A DNA stretch of 64,000 bases, from the sequence record MT446392.1. One strand, given 5' to 3'. The translations under genes and the position numbers were made by a program. Source of the DNA: Escherichia virus TH15. A model generated the notes under the pieces. It was not told the origin of the DNA and searched no databases. It saw only the letters and a list, made by a program, of their open reading frames with translations. Positions 1,108-10,365 of this stretch are shown here, piece by piece. Within the stretch, counting starts at the first letter, position 1, and every line of letters starts with the position of its first letter.

Positions 1108-1172
1108 TGAAAATTCAAATTGCCGGTATTTTATTTCTGGTCGTAATGGTCGGACTTAACTTCCTACTATGA
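1107..1172 (+). CDS. putative 21-aa hydrophobic micropeptide (MKIQIAGILFLVVMVGLNFLL)
   Basis: ATG overlaps the stop of the 904 ORF and its TGA overlaps the ATG of the 1169 ORF; single predicted TM helix; below the ORF-track cutoff. Confidence 0.3.
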   Translation: MKIQIAGILFLVVMVGLNFLL

Positions 1173-1468
1173 AAGCCTGTCGGGTTGTTAACAAATATCA
1201 ATCCGACTTTGATGTGAATATTCAACGGGGTACCATGTGGGGAAACCCATATAAAGATGGTACCCGAGAAGAAAACATAAAGAACTTTAAAGAATATTTC
1301 ATATCAAAGATTAAATCGGGTGAAATCAAAAGAGAACACCTTGAAACCCTACGCGGAATGCGATTGGCCTGTACATGCAAACCAAAAGCATGCCATGGCG
1401 ATGTTATCGCCCTGGTCGTTAACAAACTTTTCAAAGATACCTTTTCGCTCGAGGATTTGGGAGCATAA
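1169..1468 (+). CDS. DUF4326-like protein
   Basis: 99-aa ORF with GNPY...ACTCKPKACHGDVI motif typical of DUF4326. Confidence 0.55.
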   Translation: MKACRVVNKYQSDFDVNIQRGTMWGNPYKDGTREENIKNFKEYFISKIKSGEIKREHLETLRGMRLACTCKPKACHGDVIALVVNKLFKDTFSLEDLGA

Positions 1469-1806: not shown

Positions 1807-4062
1807 ATGCAAGTACAAAAAAGTAGTGGTGTCTCTCAAGATTTTGATGGCCAGAAAATTATTAAAGTTCTTTCCTGGTCATGTGAAGGAACTAATATCG
1901 ACCCGTATGAATTATACGAAACAATCAAACCACATCTGCGCGATGGTATGACTACCCGCGATATTCAGACGGTTATCATCAAAGTGTCTGCTGGGCTTAT
2001 TTCGGTCGAAGAACCGGATTATCAATATGTTGCAGCGAAGGCTACGATGTTTGCTCTGCGTAAAGATGTTTATGGGCAATTCGAGCCACGTTCTTTTATT
2101 GACCAGATTTCTTATTGTGTTAATGAAGGCAAATATGACCCGGAACTGTTGTCAAGCTACTCCGCCGAAGAGATTACTTATCTGGAATCTCGTATCAAGC
2201 ACGAACGCGATTTTGACCTGACTTATGCAGGCGCGATGCAGTTGAAAGAGAAATACCTGGTTAAAGATAAAACCACTGGTAAAATCTACGAGACTCCACA
2301 ATTCGCTATCATGGCTATCGGCATGGCACTGTACCAGGATGAACCAACGGACCGTCTGAAGCACATTTGCCGTTTTTATGATGCAGTATCCACAAGACAG
2401 GTTTCGTTGCCCACACCTATCATGGCGGGCGCCAGAACACCCACCAGGCAGTTCAGTTCCTGCGTGGTTATCGAAGCTGCAGACTCCCTGAAGTCAATCA
2501 ATAAGACTGCCAATTCAATCATCGAATATATCAGTAAGCGTGCGGGTATCGGCATCAACGTTGGTATGATTCGTGCTGAAGGTTCGAAAATCGGTATGGG
2601 TGAAGTTCGTCATACTGGTGTTATTCCGTTCTGGAAACATTTCCAAACGGCTGTTAAATCCTGTTCACAAGGTGGAATCCGTGGCGGCGCTGCTACTGCT
2701 TATTATCCTTTATGGCATTTGGAAGTTGAAAATTTACTCGTTCTGAAGAACAACAAGGGCGTTGAAGAAAACCGCATCAGACATATGGACTATGGTGTCC
2801 AGTTGAATAACATGATGATGGAACGTCTGGCTAAGAATGATTACATCACTCTGTTTAGTCCACATGAAGCTGGTGGTGAATTGTATTATTCATATTTTGA
2901 TAACCCGGATAAATTCCGCGAGTTATATGAAGCCTTAGAAAAAGACCCGACAGTTCGTAAGAAACGTATCAAAGCAAAAGACCTGTTCGAATTATTCATG
3001 ACCGAACGTTCCGGCACTGCCCGAGTTTATCCACAGTTCGTTGATAACGTGAATGACTATACTCCGTTCATCCGCGATAAGGCTCCGATTCGTCAATCAA
3101 ACCTTTGTTGTGAAATTGCAATCCCGACTACTGATGTAAACAGCGAAGATGCTGAAATCGGATTGTGCACATTGTCTGCATTTGTTCTGGATAGTTTTGA
3201 CTGGCAGGACCAAGATAAGATTAACGAGCTGGCTGAAGTTCAAGTTCGTGCTCTTGATAATCTGTTGGACTACCAAGGTTATCCGGTTAAAGAAGCTCTG
3301 AAAGCCAAAAAACGTCGCAACTTGGGCGTTGGTGTTACCAACTACGCTGCATGGCTGGCAAGCAATTTCGCTTCCTACGCCGATGCAAACGATTTAACCC
3401 ATGAATTATTTGAGAGATTACAATATGGCCTTATCCGAGCATCCATCAAGCTCGCCAAAGAAAAAGGACCTTGCGAATATTATTCAGACACTCGTTGGGC
3501 TCGAGGCGAATTACCTATCGACTGGTACAATAAAAAGATTGACCAAATCGCAGCTCCAAACTACGTTTGTGACTGGGCGCAGCTGCGGGAAGACCTGGTT
3601 GCACATGGCATCCGTAATAGCACCTTATCTGCGCTCATGCCTTGCGAGTCGAGCAGCCAAGTTTCAAATAGTACCAACGGTATCGAACCTCCGCGTGGTC
3701 CAGTAAGTATTAAGGAAAGTAAAGAAGGTTCCTTTAACCAGGTTGTTCCAAATATCGAGCATAATAAAGGATTGTACGATTACGCATGGGTACTGGCTAA
3801 ACAAGGTAATAAACCTTATCTGACTCAAGTCGCGATTATGTTGAAATGGATTTGTCAGTCAGCATCAGCAAACACTTATTATGACCCGCAGAATTATCCG
3901 AAAGGAAAAGTTCCGATGTCAGTTATGCTTGACGACTTGATGTACGGTTGGTATTATGGAATCAAGAATTTTTACTATCACAATACTCGTGATGGCTCGG
4001 GAACTGACGATTACGAATTGGAAATGCCAAAAGCTGATGATTGCTCGGCATGTAAACTGTAA
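1807..4062 (+). CDS. nrdA: ribonucleotide reductase large subunit
   Basis: 751-aa ORF (T4 NrdA is about 754 aa); RBS GAGGAAAA; position after td. Confidence 0.93.
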   Translation: MQVQKSSGVSQDFDGQKIIKVLSWSCEGTNIDPYELYETIKPHLRDGMTTRDIQTVIIKVSAGLISVEEPDYQYVAAKATMFALRKDVYGQFEPRSFIDQISYCVNEGKYDPELLSSYSAEEITYLESRIKHERDFDLTYAGAMQLKEKYLVKDKTTGKIYETPQFAIMAIGMALYQDEPTDRLKHICRFYDAVSTRQVSLPTPIMAGARTPTRQFSSCVVIEAADSLKSINKTANSIIEYISKRAGIGINVGMIRAEGSKIGMGEVRHTGVIPFWKHFQTAVKSCSQGGIRGGAATAYYPLWHLEVENLLVLKNNKGVEENRIRHMDYGVQLNNMMMERLAKNDYITLFSPHEAGGELYYSYFDNPDKFRELYEALEKDPTVRKKRIKAKDLFELFMTERSGTARVYPQFVDNVNDYTPFIRDKAPIRQSNLCCEIAIPTTDVNSEDAEIGLCTLSAFVLDSFDWQDQDKINELAEVQVRALDNLLDYQGYPVKEALKAKKRRNLGVGVTNYAAWLASNFASYADANDLTHELFERLQYGLIRASIKLAKEKGPCEYYSDTRWARGELPIDWYNKKIDQIAAPNYVCDWAQLREDLVAHGIRNSTLSALMPCESSSQVSNSTNGIEPPRGPVSIKESKEGSFNQVVPNIEHNKGLYDYAWVLAKQGNKPYLTQVAIMLKWICQSASANTYYDPQNYPKGKVPMSVMLDDLMYGWYYGIKNFYYHNTRDGSGTDDYELEMPKADDCSACKL

Positions 4063-4790
4063 TGAATTATCAAAACATTTATAATAATTTAATATCCCGG
4101 GGTAAAACCCGGGAACCTTTAGCCGAATATAAAGAGATTCATCATATTATCCCAAGATGTATGGGTGGTACTGATGAAAAGACAAACCTTGTCGAGTTAA
4201 CAGCTCGAGAACATTTTATTGCTCATTTACTTTTATGCAAAATAAATCCCGGTCATTTTGGATTAGTCTCGGCCCTAACTTTAATGGCAACAGATAAAGC
4301 TGGAAATCGTATTAATAATAAATTGTATAGTTTCCATCGAAAGCTATTTGCCAAAGCAAATTCCGAATTCTTTAAGGAACACTGGAAAAATAACCCACAC
4401 CCCCGCGGTATGTTGGGTAAGCATCACAGTGAAGAATCTAAACAAATTGTAAGCGAAAAGAATAAGTTAGCTGTTCCATCTACAGAAATTTATCAATTTA
4501 CTCTCGATGGTGAATTTGTTGAAAAATTTAGGTCATTACAAGAGGCGGCGAGGACTGTAAATGGAAACGCGTCAAACATCAAGTATTGTGCAAGTGGAAA
4601 ATTTCAATATGCGTATGGATTTAGATGGTCATATTCGCTTCAACCCACATTTGATAAAATAACTCCACGACAATATAAAGGTGCCCGTGGTAAAATCTGT
4701 ATTAATGACGGGTTTACAAATAAATTAATTGAATCCTCTGAAATTATCCCCGATGGATGGGTCAGAGGAAGGATAAAGGTTAATAAATGA
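4062..4790 (+). CDS. mobE: freestanding HNH homing endonuclease, MobE-like
   Basis: 242-aa ORF with HHIIPRCMGG...N...H HNH motif; sits between nrdA and nrdB as mobE does in T4; start and stop overlap neighbours (ATGA). Confidence 0.75.
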   Translation: MNYQNIYNNLISRGKTREPLAEYKEIHHIIPRCMGGTDEKTNLVELTAREHFIAHLLLCKINPGHFGLVSALTLMATDKAGNRINNKLYSFHRKLFAKANSEFFKEHWKNNPHPRGMLGKHHSEESKQIVSEKNKLAVPSTEIYQFTLDGEFVEKFRSLQEAARTVNGNASNIKYCASGKFQYAYGFRWSYSLQPTFDKITPRQYKGARGKICINDGFTNKLIESSEIIPDGWVRGRIKVNK

Positions 4791-5965
4791 GTACAGTTTT
4801 TAACACCAAACAAGTCGATGTTTTGGAGGAGCCGATGTTCTTCGGTTCCGGATTGGGCATCGCCCGTTATGATATCCAACGTCATAAGGTATTTGAAGAA
4901 CTTACTGAAAAATCCCTCTCATTTTTCTGGCGGCCAGAGGAAGTCAACCTGATGATGGATGGAGCCCAATTTAATAAGCTTCCTGAACATCAACAAAATA
5001 TTTTTACCAACAACCTGAAATACCAATCACTTCTGGATAGTATCCAGGGTCGTGCTCCAGCTGCAGCATTAGCCGCATTAGTTTCCGACCCAAGTCTTGA
5101 TACATGGATTCAGACCTGGACATTCAGCGAGACAATTCACTCTCGTTCTTATACGCACATAATGCGAAATCTCTATACGGACCCGGCGAAGGTATTCGAC
5201 GAAATCCTGTTAGATGATGCAATTATGAAGCGCGCAGAATCTATCGGTCATTACTATGATGATGTTCTGAATAAAACTCGTCAATGGCAAAACCAGATTG
5301 CTTTTGTTGAACTGGCCAAAGAAACTCCCGAAGCGGACGAACGTTTGGAACGAGCTATCAAACAAGAAGCTATTGCCAAACGAGCATTGATGAAGTCTCT
5401 TTATCTCTGTCTGCACGTTATTAACGCCCTGGAAGCTATTCGTTTTTATGTATCTTTTGCTTGTACTTTCAACTTCCATAAAAACATGGAAATCATGGAA
5501 GGTAATGCGAAGATAATGAAGTTCATCGCCCGTGATGAACAGCTCCACCTTAAGGGGACCCAATATATTCTTCGTCAGTTGCAGACTGGCACCGACGGTG
5601 ACGAATGGGTTAAAATTGCTCAAGAATGTGAAGCAGAAGCCGCAGCTATTTTCATGGAAGTTAATCGCCAGGAAAAAGAATGGGCCGTGCATCTGTTTAA
5701 AGATGGTGGACTCCCTGGGCTGAGCGTCGAGATTCTTAACCGGTTCATCGATTACCTGACAGTTTCTCGTATGAAGCAATGCGGTCTCCCTTGTGAAATC
5801 GTGTTAGAATCTACTAAGCACCCGATTCCATGGATTCGCGAATATCTCAATTCTGATAATGTGCAATCAGCACCACAAGAAGTTGAGTTGTCCGCTTACC
5901 TGGTAGCCCAGATTGACAATGACGTCGATGAGAATGTTCTTGCTGGTTTCCGTAAATATCTATAA
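4787..5965 (+). CDS. nrdB: ribonucleotide reductase small subunit, uninterrupted
   Basis: 392-aa ORF; diiron R2-type sequence; no intron or I-TevIII-like insert. Confidence 0.93.
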   Translation: MSTVFNTKQVDVLEEPMFFGSGLGIARYDIQRHKVFEELTEKSLSFFWRPEEVNLMMDGAQFNKLPEHQQNIFTNNLKYQSLLDSIQGRAPAAALAALVSDPSLDTWIQTWTFSETIHSRSYTHIMRNLYTDPAKVFDEILLDDAIMKRAESIGHYYDDVLNKTRQWQNQIAFVELAKETPEADERLERAIKQEAIAKRALMKSLYLCLHVINALEAIRFYVSFACTFNFHKNMEIMEGNAKIMKFIARDEQLHLKGTQYILRQLQTGTDGDEWVKIAQECEAEAAAIFMEVNRQEKEWAVHLFKDGGLPGLSVEILNRFIDYLTVSRMKQCGLPCEIVLESTKHPIPWIREYLNSDNVQSAPQEVELSAYLVAQIDNDVDENVLAGFRKYL

Positions 5966-5991: not shown

Positions 5992-6402
5992 ATGAAACAA
6001 ATCGCTGACGAATACAGTTTTATAAAATATGCGGAGTTAGAGTTAGTCGATGGTAAAATCCCTATCCTTACTCTCGCAAACAAGAAAAATGTTATCTACG
6101 CTATTTCAGTTGACGACGAACTAGTGTATATTGGTAAGACGAACAACCTGAAGAAGCGAATCAATTATTACCGGACTGCAATCAATCGTATAGAACAAAC
6201 GAGTGATTCAAACAAATCCCGGATGATACATGAAGCTTTACAAGAAGGCAAAAAGGTGGTATTCTATGCACGACAATGTTTCAATCTGTCAATGACCAAT
6301 GAACTTGGTACGATGTCAGTCGAAACGATGTCTCTGGAAGAGCCGATGTTCATCAAGCTTTTTAATCCCCCGTGGAATTACCAACATAAGGTGAAGAAAT
6401 GA
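5992..6402 (+). CDS. denA: endonuclease II (GIY-YIG family)
   Basis: 136 aa from ATG at 5992 (track start 5986 is TTG inside the terminator); VIYAISVDDELVYIGKT GIY-YIG motif; T4 EndoII is 136 aa. Confidence 0.85.
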   Translation: MKQIADEYSFIKYAELELVDGKIPILTLANKKNVIYAISVDDELVYIGKTNNLKKRINYYRTAINRIEQTSDSNKSRMIHEALQEGKKVVFYARQCFNLSMTNELGTMSVETMSLEEPMFIKLFNPPWNYQHKVKK

Positions 6403-7535
6403 TTGAATTATATGATAACTTAATGAAGCTTTGCGCTGAATCCGATAAAGGTAAGTTTTTCTATACGGATTTTGTTTCTCCATTTGAAACTAAGTTCCGC
6501 ATCTTTAGCTATAACTATGCTTCCTATAGCGATTGGCTCCTTGATGATGCATTAGAGTGCCGCGGCATTATGTTTGAAATGGATGCAGATGGCCCAGTTC
6601 GTATTGCAGCTCGTCCTATGGAAAAGTTCTTTAACTTGGGCGAAAATCCGTTGACCATGGATATCAATATGGATGAAGTTGCGCTGGTCATGACCAAGGC
6701 TGATGGCTCTCTTGTCTCCACTTATATGGACCAGACCAACATTGCCTTTAAATCAAAGGGGTCAATCAAAAGCTCCCAGGCAGCAGAAGCACTACAGGTA
6801 TTCAAACAAGAACACCGTATAGCTTTCCGTGAGCGCGTAACTGAAATTACTGAAGCTGGTTATACATGCAATATGGAATATGTTGCACCAACCAACCGCA
6901 TTGTTTTGCCTTACCAGGAACGTGACCTGATTTTACTGAACGTTCGCCATAATGAAACTGGTGAATATATCCCTTATCAGGATTTGTTTAAAGATGCCGC
7001 GCTTCGCCCATTCCTGGTTGAAGCATATGACCCGGCTACAATTGAAAACGTCCGTGATATGAAAGAGATTGAAGGCTTTGTCTATGAGCTGGCTGACGGT
7101 CGCAAATTTAAAGTTAAGACAGAATGGTATTGTGCTTTACACCATACCAAGGATTCTGTTAACAATAACCAGCGTCTTTTTGAAGTTGTTGTTGCAGGCG
7201 GTGCAGATGATGTTATTGCCATGTTTACTGGCGATGATTATGCTCGTGAAAAAGTTAATGCCTTTACCATTGCACATCTGGATTATCTGTCCAATACCCT
7301 GGGACTGTTGCTTGATGCCCAGAAACAGTTGGCGGGAAAAGACCGACGCGAGTTTGCGATTAAAGGTCAAGAGTTGTGTAAACCATATCCGGGTTTGTTC
7401 TCCGTATTAATGAACACCTATCAACGTCCCCAGGAAACAGAGCAAACCATCGCTCAAATCAATAATGTTTTCCTTAAAAATCATAAACTTTACATCCCGG
7501 TGGACTACCAAGCGGATGTAATCCTGCCTGAATAA
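6399..7535 (+). CDS. rnlA: RNA ligase 1
   Basis: 378-aa ORF; nucleotidyltransferase KxDG motif (MTKADGSL); T4 gp63 is 374 aa. Confidence 0.9.
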   Translation: MIELYDNLMKLCAESDKGKFFYTDFVSPFETKFRIFSYNYASYSDWLLDDALECRGIMFEMDADGPVRIAARPMEKFFNLGENPLTMDINMDEVALVMTKADGSLVSTYMDQTNIAFKSKGSIKSSQAAEALQVFKQEHRIAFRERVTEITEAGYTCNMEYVAPTNRIVLPYQERDLILLNVRHNETGEYIPYQDLFKDAALRPFLVEAYDPATIENVRDMKEIEGFVYELADGRKFKVKTEWYCALHHTKDSVNNNQRLFEVVVAGGADDVIAMFTGDDYAREKVNAFTIAHLDYLSNTLGLLLDAQKQLAGKDRREFAIKGQELCKPYPGLFSVLMNTYQRPQETEQTIAQINNVFLKNHKLYIPVDYQADVILPE

Positions 7536-7539
7536 TAAA

Positions 7540-7562
7540 AAGGGGTGTACAAGCCCCTTCTT
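7540..7562 (+). terminator. putative terminator hairpin
   Basis: GGGG-TGTACAAG-CCCC hairpin then T-rich tract after rnlA stop. Confidence 0.5.
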
Positions 7563-7605
7563 TCTATACATAATGGTTCCATCAACTACTGATGAGGACC
7601 AAACC

Positions 7606-7839
7606 ATGTTAAACTTAATTACAAATGACAGAGTTACAAAGGCATATGGTGACAGAAATGATGGAATCTATGTCTACAAGGGAGACCGCCGGATTGGTTT
7701 CATTACTGACCTGAAGGCCAAATTGTTAAAAGAACTGAAAGACCAAACAGGTGATTCTGGGTTTAGAGCAAGAGCTAAAAAGAAAGATGAGCGCCTGGGT
7801 GCAAACTCTTTTGGTCCTAGAGGTTATAACCGCTATTGA
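7606..7839 (+). CDS. Alc N-terminal-domain paralog, 77 aa
   Basis: About 65% identity over 37 aa with the N-terminus of the downstream alc ORF (YGDR.DGIYVYKG...GF.TDL); GAGGAC RBS before ATG 7606 (alternative ATG at 7573). Confidence 0.5.
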   Translation: MLNLITNDRVTKAYGDRNDGIYVYKGDRRIGFITDLKAKLLKELKDQTGDSGFRARAKKKDERLGANSFGPRGYNRY

Positions 7840-7849
7840 GGAAAATATT

Positions 7850-8353
7850 ATGAATATGCAACTGATTTCAAATGATATGATTGTTGATGTATATGGTGAC
7901 CGCCATGACGGAATCTATGTTTATAAGGGTTCCAAAAATGTTGGGTTCCTTACTGACTTAAGAAAGAAACTGGCGTCTGATAATAAGTTGAAGACCAAAC
8001 AGAAGGAATATCGCAATAAGAAATCAGAAGAGCGGAAAGAAGCCCTTCATGAATCTGTTCCAGAAATGGTTGACTTCTTAAAGAACCATTTGGTTAAATA
8101 TGATGCAGAAGTGTTCATCAATCAGACCCAACCTAATGTGCATATCAATGGATGTGTTTGTTATGTTGTGGTTGAACCCCTGACACTTCAACACCGCCTG
8201 GGAATTAAACACCCAGTGTTAACCCAGGATGATATGGCGGATGAAGTTGGTAATCAGTTCCGCATTTCAGCATCTGACAGTACAAATCACATCCTCCTGA
8301 ATGGTTTATCCCAGGATGATATTGTTGAGGTAATCATCAAGTTATGCAAATAA
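7850..8353 (+). CDS. alc: Alc-like host transcription shut-off protein
   Basis: 167 aa from ATG 7850 with GAGG RBS (track start 7751 lies in the upstream gene); T4 Alc is 167 aa and lies between rnlA and pseT.3. Confidence 0.6.
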   Translation: MNMQLISNDMIVDVYGDRHDGIYVYKGSKNVGFLTDLRKKLASDNKLKTKQKEYRNKKSEERKEALHESVPEMVDFLKNHLVKYDAEVFINQTQPNVHINGCVCYVVVEPLTLQHRLGIKHPVLTQDDMADEVGNQFRISASDSTNHILLNGLSQDDIVEVIIKLCK

Positions 8354-8697
8354 GTAATCTAACTGCAGGGCTTATGCTCGCCCTGGTAGTAACTGCTGGT
8401 AGTGGTTTCTATCTAAAAGCAAAAGTGGATAATCTCAAGACAGAGGTGGCTGCGGTCACCAAAGTTGCAGAAGATAACGCGAAAAATCTACAATCAATAA
8501 AAGACCAGGTTAATCAAATTAATCTCCTTGACCAGGAGCGCCAGGAATATGTTGAACTTCTGCAAAAGGAAAATGATAAACTTCGTGCAGACGCAAAACG
8601 TGCTAAGGTTGTGGCGGCTAAGCCTAAATTAGTTGAAAAACAGATTAATCAGTCCTTTGATAAGTTTGCCCAGGACTTCCAGGAGCTCACCAAATGA
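8344..8697 (+). CDS. pseT.3: i-spanin (inner-membrane spanin, Rz-like)
   Basis: N-terminal TM helix (LTAGLMLALVVTAGSGFYL) followed by a charged coiled-coil domain; position matches T4 pseT.3. Confidence 0.65.
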   Translation: MQISNLTAGLMLALVVTAGSGFYLKAKVDNLKTEVAAVTKVAEDNAKNLQSIKDQVNQINLLDQERQEYVELLQKENDKLRADAKRAKVVAAKPKLVEKQINQSFDKFAQDFQELTK

Positions 8698-8984
8698 TGA
8701 AATCTATCATGGCAGTATGTTTGGCTATTGGACTTGTTTCATGCGCCCAGAAGCCTGTTGTGGAGCCCACAATTCAAGTTCATCCTAATTGGCCACAGAC
8801 ATTAATGGAATACCGTCAGCAATGGGAAGTGAAGGTAATTGACGGTCAACCATGGGTTGGTATGCCTTTTGAAGCATCGCAAGAATTCCGGATTTGGATG
8901 AATGATGTAAAAAGGTATGTACATGACCAAAAAGGTATGTTATGTTATTATCGTTCTGAACTAAAAGAGGAGCGTTGCAAATGA
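8694..8984 (+). CDS. pseT.2: o-spanin (outer-membrane lipoprotein, Rz1-like)
   Basis: Signal peptide with lipobox LVSC; small Pro-rich periplasmic protein with C-terminal Cys; position matches T4 pseT.2. Confidence 0.65.
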   Translation: MMKSIMAVCLAIGLVSCAQKPVVEPTIQVHPNWPQTLMEYRQQWEVKVIDGQPWVGMPFEASQEFRIWMNDVKRYVHDQKGMLCYYRSELKEERCK

Positions 8985-9148
8985 TAGAGACCTGTAGCCT
9001 TGGTTGGGATATTGTTAGATTTGGTGCATTCTGTTTTTGTTTTGGGATTGCGGCCACTTTATGTGTTCAAGGTCTTTTTGGAAAGTAGTGTACAAACTCA
9101 TGGGAGCAGAGTATAATGCTCCTACGGATAATAATTGAGGAAATAATT

Positions 9149-10364
<1,216 letters not shown>

Positions 10365-10365
<1 letters not shown>

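What the first reader, a model, noticed from the sequence alone, without database searches (positions are those of the whole stretch)
7573..8353. Partial duplication of the alc N-terminal domain as a separate upstream ORF
The 77-88-aa ORF upstream of alc shares about 65% identity over ~37 residues with the Alc-like N-terminus (NDRVTKAYGDRNDGIYVYKGDRRIGFITDLKAKL versus NDMIVDVYGDRHDGIYVYKGSKNVGFLTDLRKKL). It then diverges into a Lys/Arg-rich tail. This is a stand-alone copy of one domain of a transcription shut-off factor and could act as a modulator or decoy. The alc call itself rests on length (167 aa) and position only.
Basis: seen in the sequence. Interest (0 to 1): 0.45.

Follow-up and report, generated by a model that had tools for sequence, protein, structure and literature searches.

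The report
Short conserved paralog of phage Alc
A T4-like phage carries, just upstream of its host-transcription shut-off gene alc, a small conserved gene copied from the front end of alc and given a new tail; the gene is real and under selection, public records already annotate it, and its function is unknown.

Summary
The window comes from a Gaprivervirus (98.7% identical to phage VR26). The ORF at 7850-8353 is a true full-length Alc (Pfam PF17527, E=4e-51). The ORF at 7606-7839 (77 aa from the ATG that has a Shine-Dalgarno sequence, not the 88-aa form) is homologous to Alc residues 1 to about 62 (BLASTP E=5e-18).

It is not a decaying remnant. It is intact in all 17 genomes compared, with dN/dS of 0.10, the same as its neighbours. 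It also occurs in three deeper metagenomic lineages. It is absent from the next-closest Alc lineages, from T4 and from two further lineages checked, where rnlA runs straight into alc.

All four lineages share a basic C-terminal tail that Alc lacks: R-x-G-x-x-N-[ST]-F-G-P-x-G-x-N-[KR]-[FY] at the C-terminus. This tail is the most constrained part of the protein (dN/dS 0.013).

AlphaFold shows that the copied piece is Alc's N-terminal helix plus beta-hairpin module and the start of its long charged helix. The C-terminal alpha/beta domain is missing.

The paralog is already annotated ("alcb" in SP18, 2010; phrog_17715). Its mechanism is inferred only: probably an early protein docking where Alc's N-module docks. 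A pure decoy is unlikely because the novel tail is so constrained.

The parts
7540..7559 (+). G+C-rich hairpin (AAGGGGT-GTACAA-GCCCCTT) followed by CTTTCT, directly after the rnlA stop codon (7533-7535). It looks like a terminator.
   Evidence: Consensus scan. Nearly invariant in the 17 Gaprivervirus genomes. Function inferred.
7545..7574 (+). Promoter-like element: -35-like GTGTAC/TGTACA, a 17-18 nt spacer, and -10-like CATAAT (7569-7574). It overlaps the hairpin.
   Evidence: the scan alone is not above chance (3 sites found, 2.9 expected). Support comes from position: GTTTAC...TA..AT elements occupy the same place after rnlA in T4, L017, L019, L020 and L023. The intergenic region is also nearly invariant. 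That GTTTAC is the T4 early -35 consensus is from my own knowledge.
7594..7598 (+). Shine-Dalgarno sequence GAGGA of the short gene, 7 nt before ATG 7606.
   Evidence: Read from the sequence. Conserved in 16 of 17 genomes and in L017 and L019.
7606..7839 (+). Short Alc paralog (77 aa; equals SP18 'alcb', VR7 ORF243c, phrog_17715).
   Evidence: Intact at 234 nt in all 17 genomes, dN/dS 0.10.
7606..7743 (+). Codons 1-46: the Alc-homologous N-module (helix 7-14, beta-hairpin 22-32, start of the long helix).
   Evidence: AF2 pLDDT above 90 for residues 11-40. Alc profile match. Retains the family-invariant residues I5, G15, D19, G20, I21, G31 and the near-invariant D35, L36.
7744..7836 (+). Codons 47-77: basic tail (net charge +5) with the motif RLGANSFGPRGYNRY at the C-terminus. 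Predicted to be disordered.
   Evidence: dN/dS 0.013 (pS 0.20, pN 0.003), including an AGA/CGG Arg-to-Arg change at codon 72. Motif shared by four lineages. pLDDT below 50.
7838..7842 (+). Shine-Dalgarno sequence GAGGA of alc, overlapping the TGA stop codon (7837-7839) of the short gene.
   Evidence: Read from the sequence. In most other Gapriverviruses the arrangement is TAA-TGAGGAAAA, i.e. a 3-nt difference.
7850..8353 (+). alc, full-length inhibitor of host transcription (167 aa).
   Evidence: Pfam PF17527 E=4.3e-51 and phrog_1253 E=4.3e-75. AF2 pLDDT 92: N-module, helix 34-80, alpha/beta domain 87-166.

Best explanation
SHOWN. 7606-7839 is a real protein-coding gene under selection. It arose once, in the ancestor of Gaprivervirus and a few related uncultured lineages, by duplication of the 5' part of alc (ribosome-binding site plus about 60 codons). 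It then acquired a new basic C-terminal peptide with a conserved motif. It is the first gene after the early-type promoter-like element that directly precedes alc in T4 and other relatives. It lies 10-13 nt upstream of alc, and in this window its stop codon overlaps the alc Shine-Dalgarno sequence.

INFERRED. It is made together with Alc immediately after infection. Through the retained N-module it docks on whatever partner Alc's N-module docks on. That module is the best-conserved part of the Alc family, and its partner is most plausibly host RNA polymerase, since rpoB dispensable-region-I mutations block Alc. Lacking Alc's C-terminal alpha/beta domain, the short protein cannot do what full Alc does. 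Instead it brings a basic, aromatic, probably disordered tail to that site. It would therefore be an accessory or modulator of Alc-type host-transcription takeover, not a passive decoy.
For: Homology.

Selection: intact in 17 of 17 genomes; dN/dS is 0.10, against alc 0.107, rnlA 0.073 and pseT.3 0.098. The tail has dN/dS 0.013, with 12 codons carrying synonymous variation and a single nonsynonymous variant.

Depth: 77/78-aa orthologs sit between rnlA and alc in L017, L018 and L019, where Alc is 79-80% identical to the window's Alc. A fourth lineage is P0045. These orthologs are only about 47-63% identical to each other, yet they keep the length, the N-module invariants and the tail motif.

Single origin: absent from the next-closest Alc lineages (62-63% identical to the window's Alc) and also from T4, L028 and L029, where rnlA abuts alc.

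Expression signals.

Structure. The N-module is the most conserved segment across 25 Alc proteins (majority fraction 0.74, against 0.64 for the helix and 0.69 for the C-domain).

Literature: Alc requires RNAP beta dispensable region I, and its mechanism is unknown (PMC2988021).
Against: There is no expression, binding or phenotype data for this protein. Which part of Alc contacts RNA polymerase is not known, so 'same docking site' is a guess. The promoter-like site does not exceed chance on its own. One metagenomic variant (P0002, one contig) has a frameshifted tail. This could be an assembly error, or it could mean the tail is dispensable. Amino-acid variants of the short gene do not track the two deep alleles of the Alc N-terminus in Gaprivervirus, so there is no sign of co-evolution between the two proteins.
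Confidence: 0.45

Rival explanations
1. The protein has a new function and acts independently of Alc and of Alc's target. For example, it could be a small basic nucleic-acid-binding or other host-takeover early protein, with the Alc-like module serving only as a folded scaffold for the tail.
For: pI about 10 and net charge +6 to +8 in all four lineages, against pI 6.4 for Alc. The tail is the most constrained part. Between lineages the Alc-like part has diverged as far as paralogs have (26/45 identical). No co-variation with Alc alleles.
Against: It keeps the family-invariant N-module residues. It is adjacent to alc and probably co-transcribed with it in every lineage. It has never been found apart from alc.
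Confidence: 0.25
2. It is mainly a leader ORF. Translating it up to the alc ribosome-binding site sets the level or timing of Alc synthesis (translational coupling), and the peptide itself matters little.
For: The stop codon overlaps or abuts the alc SD (TGAGGAAAA; TAATGAGGAAAA in other members) in every lineage seen. The 77/78-codon length is constant.
Against: Strong amino-acid-level purifying selection, including a multi-nucleotide Arg-to-Arg codon change. The peptide motif is conserved across lineages whose DNA is saturated with change. alc has its own strong SD, and in relatives it is translated without any such leader.
Confidence: 0.15
3. It is a non-functional remnant of a partial tandem duplication of alc, on its way to being lost.
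For: It covers only the first third or so of Alc. One contig has a frameshifted tail (P0002).
Against: Intact in 17 of 17 genomes with dN/dS 0.10. Tail dN/dS 0.013. Retained in four lineages that are 47-63% identical. Has its own SD. All 33 public Gaprivervirus-type records carry the region, and 34 records give full-length tblastn matches at 90% identity or more.
Confidence: 0.03

Closest known systems
T4 Alc (gene alc/unf; Pfam PF17527, phrog_1253)
   Same: The short protein is homologous to Alc residues 1 to about 62. It has the same N-terminal helix plus beta-hairpin module and the same invariant residues (YGD..DGI.V.KG...G...DL). It sits in the same early transcription unit after rnlA.
   Different: It is 77 aa instead of 165-170 aa. 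It lacks the second half of the long charged helix and the whole C-terminal alpha/beta domain. It has a basic C-terminal motif peptide that no Alc has. It is basic (pI 10) where Alc is mildly acidic (pI 6.4). The activity that defines Alc, termination on cytosine DNA, cannot be assumed for it.
SP18 'alcb' (YP_003934864), VR7 ORF243c (YP_004063924), phrog_17715
   Same: This is the same gene: 95-99% identical protein, same position, and an end-to-end match to the 77-position PHROG profile (E=5.8e-54).
   Different: No difference of substance. The public annotation ('inhibitor of host transcription') is a name transferred from Alc, not a tested function.
Truncated-paralog regulators ('microproteins', e.g. 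Id proteins versus bHLH factors); a functional analogy from my own knowledge
   Same: A small protein keeps only the interaction module of a larger paralog and is produced alongside it.
   Different: Classic microproteins work purely by sequestration and have no added effector part. Here the added tail is the most constrained region. No interaction has been shown.
Small T4 early proteins that bind RNA polymerase (AsiA, RpbA, gp33, Mrh)
   Same: Similar size class, early expression, and a plausible target in host RNA polymerase.

Membership tests
Alc (Pfam PF17527): ORF 7850-8353 | Full-length match to the family profile above the gathering score | tested here: met
   173.5 bits against a cut-off of 25, E=4.3e-51, residues 1-166 on profile positions 1-176 of 177. 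phrog_1253 E=4.3e-75.
Alc (Pfam PF17527): ORF 7850-8353 | Conserved position rnlA -> alc -> pseT.3/pseT.2 -> pseT | tested here: met
   Gene order in the window is the same as in T4, apart from the extra short gene.
Alc (Pfam PF17527): ORF 7850-8353 | Terminates transcription on cytosine-containing DNA and depends on RNAP beta dispensable region I | not testable with these tools
   This is a biochemical property, known for T4 Alc only (PMC2988021).
Alc (Pfam PF17527): short ORF 7606-7839 | Sequence match to the family profile above the gathering score | tested here: met
   39.9 bits against a cut-off of 25, E=4.4e-10, but only profile positions 3-62 of 177.
Alc (Pfam PF17527): short ORF 7606-7839 | Full architecture: N-module, long helix and C-terminal alpha/beta domain, about 165-170 aa | tested here: not met
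   77 aa. No remnant of the remainder in any frame. AF2 gives only the N-module plus a helix. Every full Alc found in complete form is 162-171 aa; the few other lengths in the list are longer ORF calls (179-189 aa) or a 109-aa fragment from a 942-nt contig. It is therefore a homolog of part of Alc, not an Alc.
phrog_17715 (short Alc-like protein of Gapriverviruses) | End-to-end match to the 77-position profile | tested here: met
   E=5.8e-54, residues 1-77 on profile positions 1-77 of 77.
PRC-barrel domain (the annotation of this gene in phage EAWsc9, PQ341120) | Match to a PRC-barrel profile or fold | tested here: not met
   [not shown]

The most novel reading that the evidence does not exclude
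The short paralog is an Alc-tuning factor tied to the unusual DNA chemistry of this clade. Gapriverviruses keep alc, denA, denB and the dCTPase gene, but they are reported to lack dCMP hydroxymethylase (gene 42), and I confirmed its absence at the syntenic site in VR7. The only clade known to carry the extra Alc N-module gene is thus the clade whose own DNA may not carry the hydroxymethylcytosine that normally exempts phage DNA from Alc. On this reading the small protein would occupy the Alc docking site on RNA polymerase, or bind Alc, and would re-set which templates are spared.
Probability: 0.1. Interest if true: 0.6.

Novelty: already known. Interest (0 to 1): 0.27.

Why it matters
Alc is a classic but mechanistically unsolved factor. 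It makes host RNA polymerase terminate on ordinary cytosine DNA while sparing modified phage DNA. No structure is available, and nobody knows which part of Alc touches the polymerase. A naturally occurring, selected, stand-alone copy of Alc's N-terminal module gives a ready-made dissection of the protein: whatever the 77-aa protein binds is a strong candidate for the partner of Alc's N-module. The conserved tail motif is a defined target for mutation. The gain is modest. The gene is already in the databases, it is confined to one genus plus a few uncultured relatives, and nothing here shows what it does.

Tried and rejected
1. Frameshifted remnant of the rest of alc inside or after the short ORF. 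An Alc profile searched against all three frames of 7536-7860 finds only the in-frame N-terminal match. A 12-nt exact match lying 5 nt out of register (7739-7750 vs 7991-8002) hints at a local frameshift origin for the tail. The distal DNA alignment is not significant, however (36 of 500 shuffles score as high), so this is left undecided.

2. Recent gene conversion between the paralogs. Paralog nucleotide identity is 55-61% in every genome, no higher within a genome than between genomes. Rejected.

3. Donor lineage of the duplication. Identity of the short ORF to Alc N-termini is flat across genera at 30-43%, which is uninformative. Only the exact 'DGIYVYKG' string weakly favours the clade's own Alc.

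4. Wider family. I ran phmmer against 1.84 billion representatives, two word-indexed searches, IMG/VR and a metagenome scan. These found only four short-paralog lineages. The other hits were full Alc proteins, a frameshifted T4-type alc (P0039, phage G28), and Bacteroidetes-type surface repeat proteins that share a beta-hairpin motif (P0034, P0036). I judge the last group to be motif resemblance summed over 9-12 repeats, not homology.

6. PDB by sequence: no solved Alc structure.

7. PRC-barrel annotation: not supported.

8. NCBIfam: no model for either protein.

9. Literature: no paper in the library discusses the short paralog, and I found none on an Alc structure.

Full report
**What the window is.** The 1.1-kb stretch around the finding is 98.7% identical to Escherichia phage vB_EcoM_VR26. 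It is 92.7-98.5% identical to 32 other records of the same kind (VR25, VR7, SP18, VR20 and others); those whose records I inspected are classified as genus Gaprivervirus, Tevenvirinae. The local gene order on the + strand is:
- rnlA, 6399-7535
- the short ORF
- alc, 7850-8353
- pseT.3, 8344-8697
- pseT.2, 8694-8984
- a variable ORF, 9116-9460
- pseT, 9457-10365

This is the T4 order with one extra gene.

**Check of the observation.** Both ORFs and both quoted peptides are present.
- BLASTP of the short protein against the 167-aa protein gives 48% identity over 62 residues, E=5e-18.
- The quoted core is 21/34 identical.
- The 167-aa ORF is a full-length Alc: PF17527, 173.5 bits, E=4.3e-51, and phrog_1253, E=4.3e-75. 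It is 56% identical to T4-type Alc.
- The short ORF itself passes the Pfam ALC gathering score (39.9 bits against 25), but only over profile positions 3-62 of 177.
- At the DNA level an in-frame repeat survives: 65 nt at 74% and 17 nt at 88%, both at offset 247.

**Which start codon.** ATG 7606 (77 aa) is preceded by GAGGA at a 7-nt spacing. It also matches the 77-position profile phrog_17715 end to end (E=5.8e-54). ATG 7573 (88 aa) has no SD and lies inside the -10-like hexamer CATAAT (7569-7574). A transcript from that promoter would therefore not contain it. An upstream ATG also sits within the -10-like element in L017 and L019, but in L019 it is out of frame (sequences).

**Is it a gene or a remnant?** I extracted the locus from 16 related genomes.
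- The short ORF is 234 nt and intact in all 17 genomes, counting the window.
- Nei-Gojobori dN/dS is 0.10. This is indistinguishable from alc (0.107), pseT.3 (0.098), pseT.2 (0.102) and rnlA (0.073).
- Split in two, the Alc-like part (codons 1-46) has dN/dS 0.27. The tail (codons 47-77) has pS 0.20, pN 0.003 and dN/dS 0.013. Twelve tail codons carry synonymous variation, including an AGA/CGG Arg-to-Arg change at codon 72, and there is a single nonsynonymous variant.

So the part with no counterpart in Alc is the part under the strongest protein-level constraint.

**Phylogenetic depth.** Searches of very large protein sets with the short protein, or with an alignment of its orthologs, find only four lineages:
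- A: the Gapriverviruses.
- B: P0044, on loci L017 and L018.
- C: P0035, on locus L019.
- D: P0045.

Lineages B and C lie on metagenomic contigs whose Alc is 79-80% identical to the window's. In both, the 77/78-aa gene sits between rnlA and alc. The next-closest Alc lineages (P0009 at 63%, P0007 at 62%) have rnlA running directly into alc, as do T4 and two further lineages, L028 and L029. This fits one duplication in the common ancestor of lineages A-D.

The orthologs are only 47-63% identical to each other. They nevertheless keep three things:
- the length;
- the N-module residues that are invariant or nearly so in Alc (I5, G15, D19, G20, I21, G31, D35, L36);
- a tail with net charge +4 to +5 and the pattern G-F...basic...R-x-G-x-x-N-[ST]-F-G-P-x-G-x-N-[KR]-[FY] at the C-terminus.

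No Alc protein has this tail.

**Structure.** AlphaFold2 on Alc with a 25-sequence alignment gives mean pLDDT 92. The model has three parts:
- a small N-terminal module: helix 8-15 and a beta-hairpin at 23-33;
- one long helix, 34-80; residues 37-68 are 56% charged and only 22% hydrophobic, so it looks like a rigid single helix and not a coiled coil (inference);
- an alpha/beta domain, 87-166.

The short protein is predicted to have the same N-module (pLDDT above 90 for residues 11-40) and a helix running on from it. Confidence falls below 50 from residue 52. In lineages B-D, prolines follow the conserved G-F, so the helix probably ends near residue 48. Across the Alc family the N-module is the most conserved segment, which argues that it contacts a conserved partner.

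**Expression context.** The 70-nt rnlA-to-short-gene spacer is almost invariant in 17 genomes: five substitutions, mostly confined to a single sequence variant, plus one indel. Synonymous sites in the flanking genes differ by 12-28%. The spacer holds three elements:
- a G+C-rich hairpin followed by a T-rich run (7540-7559);
- a -35/-10-like pair (7545-7574);
- the SD.

The consensus scan alone is not above chance. However, a GTTTAC...TA..AT pair lies at the equivalent place after rnlA in T4, L017, L019, L020 and L023. From my own knowledge, GTTTAC is the T4 early -35 consensus and alc is an early gene. The short gene has thus been inserted between alc and its early promoter-like element, and it would be the first gene translated from that transcript. 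Its stop codon overlaps the alc SD (TGAGGAAAA) in this window. In most other members the arrangement is TAATGAGGAAAA.

**Mechanism.**
- Shown: homology to the Alc N-terminus, purifying selection, a single origin, a conserved novel tail, and co-location with alc.
- Inferred: early co-expression; docking through the shared module on the partner of Alc's N-module; and the tail as an added effector or anchoring peptide.

The literature available here says that Alc's mechanism is unknown, that it appears to bind neither DNA nor RNA, and that mutations in RNAP beta dispensable region I abolish its action (PMC2988021). If the C-terminal domain is the template-sensing part and the N-module is the polymerase-docking part, the short protein would sit on the polymerase without that sensor. 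This is a hypothesis. I give it about 0.45. The gene-level conclusions I put above 0.9.

Rivals:
- An Alc-independent new function (0.25).
- A leader ORF that sets Alc translation (0.15). The peptide-level constraint argues against this.
- A decaying remnant (0.03). This is effectively excluded.

**Context that could raise interest.** Two papers report that Gapriverviruses keep alc, denA, denB and the dCTPase gene but lack any known enzyme for making hydroxymethylcytosine (PMC8056088; PMC12115623). I confirmed that VR7 has the order uvsX, ORF049c, 42.1, imm, 43, with no gene 42 or beta-gt at the T4 position. The extra Alc-module gene and the missing hydroxymethylase thus coincide in one clade. 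That is a single evolutionary event, so it is a correlation of one. Whether lineages B-D also lack gene 42 is unknown.

**Novelty and verdict.** The duplication is already recorded. SP18's GenBank entry names the two genes alcb and alca, and describes alcb as 'similar to N-terminal region of bacteriophage JS98 Alc'. VR7, P896, UPEC01 and others annotate it as an inhibitor of host transcription. PHROGs has a dedicated family. No paper in the searchable library discusses it. What this analysis adds:
- the selection evidence;
- the deeper lineages;
- the conserved tail motif;
- the structural delimitation of what was copied.

The finding is correct and tidy, and it is a useful handle on Alc. It is ordinary in kind, being a retained partial paralog in a phage, and its function remains unknown.

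Noticed in passing
window 4062-4790 (+): A 242-aa ORF with a NUMOD1 domain (PF07453, E=1e-7) lies between nrdA (1807-4062) and nrdB (4787-5965). SP18 has no gene between nrdA and nrdB. It is probably a mobile homing-endonuclease insertion, in the same slot as mobE in T4.
   Followed up: partly
window 7850-8029 (alc codons 1-60) versus 8030-8350: Among Gapriverviruses the first 60 codons of alc exist as two deep alleles (pS 0.34, pN 0.047; about 13 amino-acid differences). The rest of the gene is almost invariant (pS 0.075, pN 0.002). This is a mosaic patch limited to the very module that was duplicated. It is not derived from the short gene (paralog nucleotide identity about 58%).
   Followed up: partly
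L026 (VR7 NC_014792 19000-33000), outside the window: VR7 has the order uvsX, ORF049c, 42.1, imm, 43, with no dCMP hydroxymethylase (gene 42) or beta-glucosyltransferase at the T4 position. This agrees with two papers saying Gapriverviruses lack known hmC synthesis while keeping alc, denA, denB and gene 56. The nature of their DNA bases appears to be unresolved.
   Followed up: partly
[not shown]
   Followed up: no
window 7540-7574: The terminator-like hairpin after rnlA holds the -35-like hexamer of the downstream promoter-like element in its loop and 3' arm (AAGGGGT-GTACAA-GCCCCTT). The whole spacer is nearly invariant in 17 genomes. T4 has the promoter element at this place but no such hairpin.
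   Followed up: partly
window 8985-9456: The stretch between pseT.2 and pseT varies among Gapriverviruses. The window has one 114-aa ORF (9116-9460, no Pfam or NCBIfam hit). VR7 has two ORFs (160 and 99 aa). SP18 has one of 118 aa. P896 and P8 have an extra 35-aa ORF.
   Followed up: no
P0034, P0036 (database proteins, not in the window): phmmer with the 77-aa protein hits surface-repeat proteins of 1100-1400 aa, 9-12 times each, on the motif 'NGDGTYTYVNERGVSVIIDVPADV', which resembles Alc's 'NDGIYVYKGDRRIGFITDL' beta-hairpin. This is probably convergent motif similarity inflated by repeat number.
   Followed up: partly
P0039 (63 aa; phage vB_EcoM-G28) and P0002 (75 aa; one ENA contig): There are natural or assembly-derived frameshift variants. 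One is a T4-type alc truncated after residue 48. The other is a Gaprivervirus short paralog whose tail is replaced after residue 55.
   Followed up: no
window 1169-1468 (+): A 99-aa ORF with DUF4326 (PF14216, E=7e-22) lies between td (44-904, thymidylate synthase) and nrdA.
   Followed up: no
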